Positions 18,001 through 21,000 of a stretch of DNA of 64,000 bases are shown piece after piece. Position 1 is the first letter of the stretch, and each line of letters opens with the position of its first letter. Origin of the DNA: Callorhinchus milii (lineage: Eukaryota). Location of the stretch: contig NW_024704746.1 in assembly GCF_018977255.1 (NCBI RefSeq), forward strand, positions 18,414,001 to 18,478,000, given 5' to 3'. A program made the position numbers.

Positions 18001-21000
18001 GCGTGTTGTGCATGTAATACAGTCTAGGGAACCTTCTTTGAGAGATTCTAATCCAGATGAAATAGAAATTGATTTTGAAACGTTGAAACCATCCACATTA
18101 AGAGAATTGGAAAGATATGTTATGACTTGTTTAAGAAAGAAACCAAGAAAACCTTATTGTAAGTAGTAAATGCTGTTACATTAACTATTTTACCTTCTTT
18201 AGGCAAGTATTCTAATATGTGTACTTGTATATTATATTCAGCTAAAAAGGTTTCTGGAAGATCTAAAGAAGAAATTCAACTGGAGAAAAAACAAGAACTG
18301 GAAAAAAGATTGCAAGATGTGAGTGGACATTTGAACTCTGGGAAAAAACAAACCAAAAAATGTATGTACTGTATTTAATAAATGTTGAATACGCTAGAAT
18401 TTATATTTTTCCTGTTTTTTTCAAATTTAGAATGTTTGAATTTTTTTATTTAATAGCTCAGAAGAATGATCCAGCCATGGAGATGGGAGGATTGTCTCGA
18501 TTAAGTGAAAGCAGCAGTTCCTCAAAGTCTGGCAGTAGTAGCAGCAGTAATGACTCTAGTTCTTCAGAGAGCAGTGATTCTGAAACAGGTTAGGTGTCAT
18601 CTTCCGTACATATATGTACAGCCAAGTGCATCCAACTTTCCAAATATCAGTCCTTTCTCCCAGTTTCTACTACTCAAAAGGATTTATTGTAGCATTTGCC
18701 TGGAGGCATCGCACAAATCAGAAACGGGTGCAAACTTATAGATCTTGCTGAAGCACTGAATGTTGGAGGCTGGAAGTGTTCCATAATATTTCAAAGATGT
18801 CCCAACCAAATGAAAAAAGAGGACATTCGTAAGTGAGACAACTATGTTTACAATGCAGAACCTTTCACTCTATTAGTCTCAGAAAGTAGCTTCTTTCAAA
18901 TTGTTTGAAAGTCAGGTAAGGAAGAATTTTTGAAGCAAGAGCAATGTAATGCATACTGTAAATGTAGAAAGTAAATTGATCAGGTGAGGAGGAATGACTT
19001 ATTTAAGGCACGTGCCTTGAAGGTTTGAGTTGCTAAGTGACTGACTGAGAACTGTAAATACAGATGTATTATTGTGACAAAAGTCACACAGAGTTGAATT
19101 GAGACATCAACCATGTCATGCAGGGTTAGTTTGTATGTCCATTTTTGAGGGATGTCTTATGATATCACTGCACAGGGTTAATATAATGTAGTGCATGGCA
19201 TCTTGGGTTCTTGCATTTTTGCAAAAGACATTAGTACTAAATGCTGGAGATATTTTGGTTCAATGCTGCTGAGAACAATGTATATAATGGGCTATCAGAA
19301 ATAGACTTTTCTTTTCCAATACCATGAAAAAATAGTCTTTGTAATCCAATTATTTTGAACTCTTATAATAGTTCTTGTAGTCTTTGTAATCAAGTAGCTT
19401 AATTTTATAAGAATTCCTTTCTATTGCATTTCTGTATATTGCATTTAAGGTCACGTTAACCTTAAAACTGACAAATATTGAAGATCAGATCCAATAACGC
19501 AAAAATTTGAAGTCAGTTTTGGTGCTGGGGATGGAGGTTTGCTTGATCAAGATCTATTTTCTGTATAGTTGTAAACTGCAGTTATTCCGTTTCATAACTT
19601 CCTGTATTTGGAATTAATTTTTTGTTGAGATACTATTGTTTATTTTCTGTATCAACATTTAAATTATTTATGTTTGGCAAATAAACTTATTTCTAGTCCA
19701 AACTCTGCTCTGTGTGGTCTGTTCTCTCTTTCAACCCCTGCAGTTGGAGATATCCTTAGCTACAACTGTTTCAGAGGTCTCACTCCGTCAAACTGCCCTT
19801 TTTCTAACTCAAATTGTCTGGTTACATTTGAAGTTTTATTTCTTACTGTCTCATATAGAGACTAAAAACATCTTTCAGTTATTACAATTTGTGTGGCTTT
19901 GTATTGGAAATTTACTGTTAATTATTGACAATGCAGGGATTGAAGGAAAAGGACCTTTAATTACTGTTAGTACGCAGTAAAATTGTAGGCTGTAAAGAAA
20001 CACTGCCTTCATTGAATAAACGTTATTATAATAAATTTCTACAGCTAGTTTCAGACATAAGTGCAAAGTTAAGGCAGGGTCAACTGAAGTGACATTACAT
20101 TTTAAGCAACCTGTGGTTTAATGTTTTCCGATTAGTTGCTTATCTTTTCATTTTTTTAATTGATGTTTAAACAATATATTAAATCTAAACGTCAAGATTG
20201 ATGTCTTAAACCAAGTCAAGTTGGAGTAAGTCAACTCCCGCTCCCCCCTCCCCCACAGACACTCCCTCTCTCTCCCCCACTCAGGTGCCCAGCTAACAAT
20301 GTTGTGTTGTTACATATATCCCAGGCGTTTAAAGCAGAGTAGAGTGGACCATGCCAGTTAATTTTTATTCGTTTGGCTTGGGTGAGAGGACGGGGGGGGG
20401 GGAGTAAGAATTTGAGATTTGTGAACGTCTATATAAAATACAATAAACTGATTATTTGTCACTCCAAGGGAAAGGGGTTATCCAGAGTTAGGCATGTGTA
20501 TAAATGCAAAACTAATTGCGGCTGGGATATTGATAGCATGATGACTTAAGTGGCAGTGACAAGTTAAGGCAGGGTCAAGTTAGCAGGAGTGTACTGTATT
20601 ACCCTTTAATTAATAGGTCATACCTGAAATGCACCTTCCTTTTCACACATCTTCCTTTTTCAGATGCCCCAAACTGTATGTTTGCAGCACTTTTGTTCAT
20701 TTCAGATGGTCAGCTTTTTTTAAGTTACCACGTGGGAAAAATAGTCACGAACCGTTTCGTGGAACAGCATGTTCAAGCTCAAAAAAAGGTCAATTTGCTC
20801 TATTTGTAGGTGTGTTTGGGACATGGGAATGCAGCTTTTCCCACCCTAAGATCTTCAAATGGGTAATTCCATAAACTTGGTTACCAAATAAACTTTCTGA
20901 GCAATTAATTGGTAACGAGCAAATTATTTATTCTAAAAGATAAATGTGATAAATTGAAAATTCTGATTTTCAGTCAATGTTGTAAGGAAAATAGCAACTG

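What the first reader, a model, noticed from the sequence alone, without database searches (positions are those of the whole stretch)
18457..20035. Stop codon built into the SEED-exon donor: candidate short, BRD2/BRD3-like BRDT isoform
Seen: the SEED exon ends ACA G|GTTAGG. The donor has a non-consensus T at +3, so read-through gives GGT TAG and a protein of about 691 aa ending ...SSDSETG*. AATAAA hexamers follow in the intron at 19680, 20015 and 20030. Known: BRD2 and BRD3 end right after SEED (BRD2 ...DSDSG*), BRD4-S ends ...DSETGPA*, and Drosophila fs(1)h makes short and long forms. Inference: this BRDT may keep an ancestral long/short switch as a composite terminal exon, where intronic polyadenylation removes the P-TEFb-binding C-terminal motif.
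Basis: partly seen in the sequence, partly recalled or inferred. Interest (0 to 1): 0.7.

Follow-up and report, generated by a model that had tools for sequence, protein, structure and literature searches.

The report
Stop codon inside shark BRDT splice donor
In the elephant shark BRDT gene, the splice site after the serine-rich SEED exon carries an in-frame stop codon that could yield a short protein lacking the C-terminal P-TEFb-binding motif; it is an old, shared feature of this gene family rather than a new kind of thing.

Summary
The window is Callorhinchus milii BRDT, not human. Exon 11 (18457-18588) ends ACAG|GTTAGG, so read-through gives Gly-TAG and a 691-aa protein.

What makes it more than chance is conservation:
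- All 8 short BRDT models from 6 chondrichthyan species end in Gly directly after SEED. All 10 long models have Glu there, as a split G|AR codon predicts.
- 12 of 14 named vertebrate BRD2/BRD3 proteins and 7 of 15 invertebrate short forms also end in that Gly.
- Human BRD4 isoform C aligns up to ...DSETG, two residues before its end.

The AATAAA hexamers occur at chance density, although the 19680 site has a good context. No transcript data could be checked. Some short models look like annotation artefacts.

Short, CTD-less, polyadenylated Brdt mRNAs were already cloned by RACE in two teleosts (PMC4933829). Human BRD4-S uses its own terminal exon, not read-through (PMC6300607).

Verdict: a real, conserved feature and a new member of a known kind. 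Isoform production in this species is unproven. Interest is modest.

The parts
11052..28658 (+). Coding span of the BRDT gene: 20 coding exons, 3513 nt including the stop, giving a 1170-aa long form
   Evidence: Exon table with phases, acceptors and donors. The database long form P0005 maps along the whole span. Pfam finds bromodomain and BET domains in single exons.
18457..18588 (+). SEED exon (coding exon 11), phase 1 at both ends; encodes ...QKNDPAMEMGGLSRLSESSSSSKSGSSSSSNDSSSSESSDSET plus the first base of the next codon
   Evidence: It matches P0005 residues 647-690.
18586..18594 (+). Donor CAG|GTTAGG. The Gly codon is 18588-18590 and the in-frame TAG is 18591-18593. It is the only donor of 19 with T at +3.
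18589..21194 (+). Intron after the SEED exon (2606 nt). Its first ~1.1 kb would be the 3' UTR of the short form.
   Evidence: No repeat shared with the rest of the window at E<=1e-5.
19680..19685 (+). Best candidate poly(A) signal (AATAAA). It has two TGTA within 100 nt upstream, a CA about 14 nt downstream, and a TG-rich stretch at about 19707-19723.
   Evidence: sequence. My own crude context score ranks it 4th of 122 hexamers in the window. Its function is inferred, not shown.
20015..20035 (+). Two further AATAAA hexamers (20015, 20030) with ordinary context (ranks 48.5 and 31 of 122)
21195..21256 (+). First long-form-specific exon. With the G at 18588 it makes GAA (Glu), giving ...SDSET-E-IASKQK.
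   Evidence: The long protein P0005 reads SDSETEIASKQK.
27510..27693 (+). Penultimate coding exon, holding the start of the C-terminal P-TEFb-binding motif (CTM)
   Evidence: Pfam PF17105 BRD4_CDT matches P0005 residues 1129-1167.
28590..28658 (+). Last coding exon, MEGTIDMNLQSDIMATFEENLY*, the end of the CTM

Best explanation
This is the phase-1 splice donor after the SEED exon of Callorhinchus milii BRDT.

When the donor is used, the lone G at 18588 joins AA of exon 12 to give Glu. The gene then yields the 1170-aa long form, which carries the P-TEFb-binding C-terminal motif.

When the donor is not used, the same G reads GGT-TAG. If the transcript is then cleaved and polyadenylated inside the intron, it gives a 691-aa protein with BD1, BD2, ET and SEED that ends in Gly, as BRD2 and BRD3 do. 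The most likely cleavage site lies just after the AATAAA at 19680.

The Gly-stop at this junction is an old feature of BET genes. It has been kept in chondrichthyan BRDT.

Shown: the sequence, the gene model, and conservation of the Gly-stop across annotated proteins. Inferred: that the read-through mRNA is made, polyadenylated and translated in this species.
For: Identity of the gene:
- The ET exon is 100% identical to UniRef C. milii 'Bromodomain testis-specific protein' entries.
- The long form P0005 maps to 20 exons of the window.
- P0005 carries two bromodomains, BET and BRD4_CDT domains.

Conservation (on named hits that I picked):
- 8 of 8 short BRDT models end in Gly directly after SEED. 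They come from 6 species: Callorhinchus, Pristis, Pristiophorus, Mustelus, Hemiscyllium and Amblyraja.
- 10 of 10 long chondrichthyan models have Glu at that place.
- Related taxa share the preceding residue. Examples are SEP|G against SEP|E in rays, and TES|G against TES|E in Hemiscyllium and Chiloscyllium.
- This is what a split codon G|GT versus G|AR predicts. It implies a stop at +3 to +5, and so a T at +3, in all six species.
- 12 of 14 named vertebrate BRD2/BRD3 proteins end ...SDS[DE]SG.
- 7 of 15 invertebrate short forms that keep SEED end ...SDSEAG.
- The sturgeon, turtle and golden-mole long forms read SDSES|E.

Parallels in other BET genes:
- PDB 36iu_K, human BRD4 isoform C (722 aa), aligns ...SEDSETG (residues 699-720) to the C. 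milii end ...SSDSETG.
- Seabream and seabass each have a long and a short Brdt mRNA, shown by 3' RACE. The short ones encode 662 and 678 aa, lack the CTD, and have their own 3' UTRs of 198 and 176 nt with poly(A) tails (PMC4933829 passages).

Local features:
- The SEED donor is the only one of 19 with T at +3. It keeps CAG at -3 to -1, and A and G at +4 and +5.
- The 19680 AATAAA ranks 4th of 122 hexamers by context. The top-ranked site lies 770 nt after the long-form stop.
Against: - No RNA data for this species could be reached.
- The three C. milii short models (P0002-P0004) also carry stretches of other introns. They may therefore derive from unspliced pre-mRNA.
- In Pristiophorus the 3' part of the gene is a separate 212-aa model (P0359). 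There the short model may be a gene split by the annotation pipeline.
- AATAAA density in the intron is about what chance gives. My context score is ad hoc.
- By consensus count the donor is not weak (7 of 9).
- Conservation of the T among chondrichthyans could partly reflect slow evolution and shared descent. Nucleotide alignments were not available.
- In human BRD4 the short form uses its own terminal exon, so the family precedent is not read-through.
- A preprint abstract, seen only in a search listing, says transcripts with an unused 5' splice site and an intronic poly(A) site are targeted for nuclear decay (10.1101/2024.07.23.604837).
Confidence: 0.55

Rival explanations
1. Conserved sequence but no isoform. 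The donor is spliced constitutively. The Gly-stop is an inherited relic. The short protein models are annotation products: pipelines guided by BRD2/BRD3 protein alignments or by pre-mRNA reads stop at the first in-frame stop.
For: - C. milii short models P0002 and P0004 contain read-through of other introns. They differ from one another in exon use.
- Pristiophorus has a separate 212-aa model for the 3' part of the gene.
- Several short models are named BRD3-like or BRD2-like rather than BRDT.
- The hexamers occur at chance density.
Against: - A T at +3 is the exception among this gene's donors (1 of 19), yet it is implied in six species spanning holocephalans, sharks and rays.
- Teleost Brdt does make a polyadenylated short mRNA.
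- BRD4 and fs(1)h make short forms.
Confidence: 0.28
2. Read-through transcripts exist but are unproductive. They are either degraded in the nucleus or, if downstream introns are spliced, removed by nonsense-mediated decay because TAG lies far upstream of later junctions. The element would then tune the dose of long BRDT rather than make a second protein.
For: - The TAG is followed by 9 further coding exons.
- A preprint abstract in the search listing describes decay triggered by a 5' splice site plus a poly(A) site (listing only).
Against: - The short product ends exactly as BRD2/BRD3 and the body of BRD4-S do. That fits a functional protein.
- The teleost short Brdt mRNA is a stable cloned species.
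Confidence: 0.12
3. A short form is made as in human BRD4: by splicing the SEED donor to a separate small terminal exon inside the 2.6-kb intron, not by read-through.
For: Human BRD4-S is defined by the splice acceptor of its final exon 12 (PMC6300607 passages).
Against: - All three C. milii database short models end in exactly the residue that read-through gives.
- I found no evidence for such an exon, but I made no systematic search for one.
Confidence: 0.05

Closest known systems
Teleost Brdt-b (gilthead seabream, European seabass; PMC4933829)
   Same: Same gene family member (Brdt). Two mRNAs per gene. The short one (662 or 678 aa) lacks the CTD, keeps BD1, BD2, ET and SEED, and has its own short 3' UTR and poly(A) tail. 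Its size is close to the 691 aa predicted here.
   Different: It was shown by RACE, whereas here there is only sequence. The paper's passages do not say where the short ORF ends or whether it arises by read-through. Its Figure 1 with the sequences is not held, so identity of the junction stayed unchecked.
Human BRD4 isoform C (BRD4-S, 722 aa)
   Same: A short BET form lacking the CTM. Its body ends ...SEDSETG at residues 714-720, which aligns to the C. milii end ...SSDSETG.
   Different: Two more residues follow the Gly. The isoform is defined by the splice acceptor of a separate final exon 12, so it is an alternative last exon rather than donor read-through.
Drosophila Fs(1)h-S / Fs(1)h-L
   Same: One BET gene gives a short form and a long form, and the long form adds the CTM (PMC3814382 passages). 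Related dipteran and other arthropod short models end ...SDSEAG.
   Different: In hexapod long forms the Gly is also present: 15 of the 33 invertebrate long forms examined continue ...SDSEAG-, and all 15 are hexapods. The D. melanogaster protein itself was not among the rows I examined. How its short mRNA ends is not stated in the passages I read.
BRD2 and BRD3 C-termini
   Same: They end ...SDS[DE]SG directly after SEED in 12 of 14 named vertebrate proteins. The predicted short BRDT would have the same architecture and the same last residue.
   Different: BRD2 and BRD3 have no CTM exons, so this is their only end. Whether their stop codon descends from a donor is an inference, because no nucleotide data were available.

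Membership tests
BET family (BRD2/3/4/T, Fs(1)h) | Two tandem bromodomains | tested here: met
   Pfam PF00439 matches exons 2, 5 and 6 singly. It matches two stretches in P0005.
BET family (BRD2/3/4/T, Fs(1)h) | Extra-terminal (ET) domain | tested here: met
   Pfam PF17035 BET, E=2.6e-28, in exon 9 alone.
BET family (BRD2/3/4/T, Fs(1)h) | Ser/Glu/Asp-rich SEED stretch after ET | tested here: met
   Translation of exon 11. It aligns to the SEED end of human BRD4 isoform C.
Long BET forms (BRD4-L, BRDT, Fs(1)h-L) | C-terminal P-TEFb-interacting motif | tested here: met
   PF17105 BRD4_CDT, E=1.2e-21, at P0005 residues 1129-1167. This maps to 27510-27693 and 28590-28658. Binding itself was not tested.
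BRDT orthologue (rather than BRD4) | Database identity and BRDT-type C-terminal tail | tested here: met
   - 100% identity to UniRef C. milii BRDT entries.
- The tail ...TIDMNLQSDIMATFEENLY matches named shark, sturgeon, turtle and golden-mole BRDT tails.
- The long-specific exon 26330-26539 found only 13 proteins, none of them a full-length vertebrate protein named BRD4. One hit (P0359, 212 aa) is named BRD4-like but is a fragment of the Pristiophorus copy of this gene.
BRDT orthologue (rather than BRD4) | Closer to BRDT than to BRD4 in sequence; groups with BRDT in a tree | tested here: inconclusive
   - The best solved-structure matches of exons 1 and 5 and of P0004 are human BRD4, not BRDT.
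- This fits fast evolution of mammalian BRDT, but I saw only the title of Paillisson 2007 in a reference list.
- No named vertebrate BRD4 sequence was retrieved, so no tree was built.
BRDT orthologue (rather than BRD4) | Synteny with EPHX4 | tested here: inconclusive
   - An alpha/beta-hydrolase gene lies downstream on the same strand, at about 31.6-44.3 kb.
- Whether it is EPHX4 or EPHX3 could not be told.
- The BRDT-EPHX4 and BRD4-EPHX3 adjacencies are recalled, not taken from a call.
BRDT orthologue (rather than BRD4) | Germline-biased expression | not testable with these tools
   No expression data available.
Composite terminal exon / intronic polyadenylation isoform | In-frame stop soon after an unused 5' splice site | tested here: met
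   TAG at +3 to +5.
Composite terminal exon / intronic polyadenylation isoform | Functional poly(A) signal in the intron | tested here: inconclusive
   - Five AATAAA hexamers at chance density.
- The 19680 site ranks 4th of 122 by an ad hoc context score.
Composite terminal exon / intronic polyadenylation isoform | Polyadenylated transcripts that end in the intron | not testable with these tools
BRD4-S-type alternative last exon | Separate terminal exon with its own splice acceptor | not tested
   No systematic search for such an exon in 18589-21194. The database short models end as read-through predicts.

The most novel reading that the evidence does not exclude
The G|GT-TAG junction is a bifunctional element: a 5' splice site and a stop codon in the same six bases.

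On this reading it predates the vertebrate genome duplications and may be shared with pancrustacean fs(1)h genes. The terminal Gly-stop of BRD2 and BRD3 would then be a fossil of this donor, left after the long-form exons were lost.

The unusual T at +3 would be held by selection in lineages that still make both forms. It gives a clean BRD2-like end whenever U1 fails to commit the site. Chondrichthyan BRDT would be the vertebrate gene that keeps the ancestral read-through version. Mammalian BRD4 moved the short end to a separate exon.
Probability: 0.35. Interest if true: 0.55.

Novelty: new member of a known kind. Interest (0 to 1): 0.35.

Why it matters
BET proteins with and without the P-TEFb-binding tail behave differently at chromatin in flies and in human cells. 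BRDT is usually treated as a long-form-only, germline BRD4 counterpart.

If cartilaginous fishes as well as teleosts make a tail-less BRDT, then a short/long pair was the original state of BRDT. Its reported absence in mouse and human (PMC4933829) would then be a loss.

The shared Gly-stop also gives a simple structural account of how BRD2 and BRD3 relate to the short forms of BRD4, BRDT and fs(1)h. This refines a known picture; it is not a new mechanism.

Tried and rejected
- **Joined model.** Exons were searched one by one. The short-form length came from adding exon lengths.
- **The listing of cluster members.** Accession numbers, isoform names and evidence codes of the shark models stayed unchecked.
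- **The search of protein representatives with P0004.** It returned 150 unnamed proteins, some of which could be human, so I did not analyse them. Two that later named (Cetorhinus, Acipenser) were used.
- **SEED exon against solved structures.** 0 matches even at E<=10. The BRD4-S tail was reached instead with P0004.
- **Third homology search, long-specific exon.** Only 13 hits and no named vertebrate BRD4, so no family tree could be built.
- **ESM Atlas on the neighbour gene's last exon, and Pfam.** Both report an alpha/beta hydrolase only. EPHX3 versus EPHX4 is unresolved.
- **Self-BLAST of the intron against the window.** No repeats. Uninformative.
- **Rfam on the window.** Nothing in the intron.
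- **Weak donor idea.** Not upheld by consensus count.
- **AATAAA presence as evidence.** Rejected, because the density is at chance level.
- **Literature.**
  - one paper holds both Callorhinchus and BRDT. Its passages say nothing on isoforms.
  - 4 papers hold BRDT and 'intronic polyadenylation', each term once in the 3 listed. None is on this topic by title.
  - 3 papers, none discussing an ancestral short form.
- **Closed or unsuited collections.** Supplementary files and figures of the papers were not available.
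Full report
**What the window is.**
- The ET-domain exon (17870-18157) is 100% identical to three UniRef entries for Callorhinchus milii 'Bromodomain testis-specific protein' (P0002 629 aa, P0003 645 aa, P0004 707 aa). It is also identical to an unnamed 1167-aa long form, P0005.
- The window is therefore elephant-shark DNA, not human.
- A tblastn of P0005 against the window, followed by inspection of the junctions, gives 20 coding exons from 11052 to 28658 on the + strand.
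- Single exons carry Pfam bromodomain and BET domains.
- P0005 carries two bromodomains, BET, and the BRD4_CDT motif at residues 1129-1167. That motif maps to the last two exons.
Exons were searched one at a time, and the joined step was left out. Where a whole protein was needed I used database proteins that the tools had returned.

**The observation.**
- Exon 11 is 18457-18588. Its acceptor is ttaatag|CTCAG and its donor is CAG|GTTAGG.
- The exon ends in phase 1. Read-through gives GGT TAG, so the protein would end ...SSDSETG.
- AATAAA lies at 19680, 20015 and 20030 as stated. There are further copies at 20442 and 20887.
- One correction: the intron ends at 21194, and exon 12 is 21195-21256. 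When spliced, the lone G joins AA to give Glu (...SDSET-E-IASKQK), as in P0005.

**Is it more than chance within the window?** Only slightly.
- The SEED donor is the only one of 19 with T rather than A at +3.
- An immediate read-through stop also occurs at exon 18, where AG|GTAA sits in phase 2.
- The SEED donor matches the consensus at 7 of 9 positions, inside the gene's range of 6 to 8. It is not obviously weak.
- AATAAA occurs 68 times on the + strand (1.06 per kb). The intron holds 5 copies against about 2.4 expected from its composition.
- 62% of sampled positions have an AATAAA within the 1090 nt that separate the stop from the first hexamer. The hexamers by themselves are not evidence.
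- I scored hexamer context crudely, using upstream TGTA and downstream G+T and TGT/GTG content. By that score the 19680 site ranks 4th of 122 AATAAA/ATTAAA sites.
- The top-ranked site lies 770 nt after the long-form stop, where the gene's true 3' end is expected.
- The 19680 site has a CA about 14 nt downstream and a TG-rich stretch after it. This is suggestive only.

**Conservation is the real evidence.** From the named hits I picked chondrichthyan BRDT-type proteins, vertebrate BRD2/BRD3 proteins, and short invertebrate forms, and read their ends.

| Set examined | Result at the SEED junction |
|---|---|
| Short chondrichthyan models: 8 proteins, 6 species | 8 of 8 end in Gly directly after SEED (SETG, SEPG, SESG, TEAG, TESG, SEPG) |
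| Long chondrichthyan models: 10 proteins | 10 of 10 have Glu at that position |
| Named vertebrate BRD2/BRD3: 14 proteins | 12 end ...SDS[DE]SG; the other 2 have aberrant tails |
| Invertebrate short forms that keep SEED: 15 proteins | 7 end ...SDSEAG (two Anopheles, Culex, Polyplax, Papilio, Pseudolycoriella, Daphnia); 1 reads on for 8 residues after the Gly; 7 end elsewhere |

- The six chondrichthyan species with short models are Callorhinchus, Pristis, Pristiophorus, Mustelus, Hemiscyllium and Amblyraja.
- Close relatives share the preceding residue. Hemiscyllium has TES|G where Chiloscyllium has TES|E. Pristis and Amblyraja have SEP|G where Mobula, Hemitrygon and Narcine have SEP|E.
- That is what a split codon predicts: G|GT on read-through and G|AR when spliced. 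It means a stop at +3 to +5, and so a T at +3, in all six species.
- Sturgeon, turtle and golden-mole long forms also read SDSES|E.
- In hexapod long forms the Gly is kept and the protein continues. 15 of the 33 invertebrate long forms examined continue AG..., and all 15 are hexapods. This fits a G|GN split codon.
- The solved-structure library holds human BRD4 isoform C (722 aa). Its residues 699-720, ending ...SEDSETG, align to the C. milii end ...SSDSETG, and two residues follow.

**What weakens the isoform claim.**
- No RNA data could be reached.
- The C. milii short models carry pieces of other introns and differ in exon use. That is what models built from unspliced pre-mRNA look like.
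- In Pristiophorus the 3' part of the gene is a separate 212-aa 'BRD4-like' model. The short model there may simply be a gene that the pipeline split at this unusual donor.
- Shared descent and slow sequence change could explain part of the conservation among chondrichthyans. I could not align nucleotides.

**Literature.**
- PMC4933829 (passages read; figures not held). 3' RACE in seabream and seabass gave a long Brdt mRNA (978 and 979 aa) and a short one (662 and 678 aa). The short one has a different 3' coding end and its own 3' UTR of 198 or 176 nt with a poly(A) tail, and it lacks the CTD. The authors compare it with the short forms of brd4 and fs(1)h. They state that no such Brdt transcript is reported in human or mouse. 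The passages do not say where the short ORF ends.
- PMC6300607 (passages). Human BRD4-S is defined by the splice acceptor of its final exon 12. Guide RNAs against that acceptor switch cells to BRD4-L. The human precedent is therefore an alternative last exon, not read-through.
- PMC3814382 (passages). Fs(1)h-S and Fs(1)h-L differ by the CTM and bind different genomic sites.
- Searches for Callorhinchus with BRDT, for BRDT with intronic polyadenylation, and for an ancestral short BET form found nothing on this point in the held library.

**Gene identity.**
- In favour of BRDT:
  - The database names.
  - The tail ...TIDMNLQSDIMATFEENLY, shared with named BRDTs.
  - The long-specific exon found no full-length vertebrate protein named BRD4.
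- Against a simple reading: the best solved-structure matches are human BRD4.
- A downstream alpha/beta-hydrolase gene on the same strand fits the recalled BRDT-EPHX4 arrangement. It fits BRD4-EPHX3 equally well.
- I put BRDT orthology at about 0.85.

**Verdict.** The feature is real, and the Gly-stop at the SEED junction is an old, conserved property of BET genes.
- The most likely mechanism is competition between this donor and cleavage/polyadenylation in the intron. That would give a 691-aa BRD2/BRD3-like BRDT without the P-TEFb-binding tail (confidence 0.55).
- The main rival is that the site is always spliced and the short models are annotation products (0.28).
- Because short Brdt, BRD4-S and Fs(1)h-S are already known, this is a new member of a known kind.
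- The possibly new point is that the stop sits inside the donor itself, and that BRD2/BRD3 ends may be fossils of it.

Noticed in passing
window 18457-18475: There is a second in-frame acceptor 18 nt inside the SEED exon (AG at 18473-74, exon start 18475). The three UniRef short models use it (…KKS-MEMGG, dropping QKNDPA). P0005 uses 18457.
   Followed up: partly
window 26539-26547: The exon 18 donor AG|GTAACA, in phase 2, also gives an immediate read-through stop (AGG TAA). Here the stop comes from the ordinary GTAA consensus.
   Followed up: yes
window about 31600-44264, + strand: A downstream alpha/beta-hydrolase gene that looks like an epoxide hydrolase. Its exons include 39551-39829 (Pfam Abhydrolase_1, E=9e-9) and a last exon ending at 44261. 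Its 5' end lies in a G+C-rich stretch (GC 0.515 at 30-32 kb). EPHX3 versus EPHX4 was not resolved.
   Followed up: partly
window 40784-40853, + strand: An Rfam tRNA match (50.6 bits, E=6.6e-8) inside an intron of the hydrolase gene. It may be a tRNA gene or a tRNA-derived repeat.
   Followed up: no
window about 2600-3250, 11720-12514 (-), 41970-42780, 49170-49450, 52290-52830, 62550-62800: The six-frame ORF lists show recurring ORF-like translations with motifs such as ...LKTLLFD...AFG.... They look like copies of one interspersed repeat family, in both orientations.
   Followed up: no
window 49950-50900: A G+C-rich stretch (GC 0.547 at 50-52 kb) whose translation is a long Gly/Val/Ser/Trp-rich repeat (GGSVLGLGG..., 313-aa ORF on the - strand). 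It is probably a tandem or simple repeat.
   Followed up: no
window 25064-25173: The database long form P0005 differs from the window by at least one residue here (…LLLQF… against the window's …LLLQL…). P0005 also stops three residues short of the window's ORF end. This may be a polymorphism or another assembly version.
   Followed up: no
window 58311: A single N. It was left as it is.
   Followed up: no
window 29430 and 29859, + strand: Two ATTAAA sites, 770 and 1200 nt after the long-form stop, rank 1st and 5th of 122 by my context score. They are likely candidates for the gene's main 3' end.
   Followed up: partly
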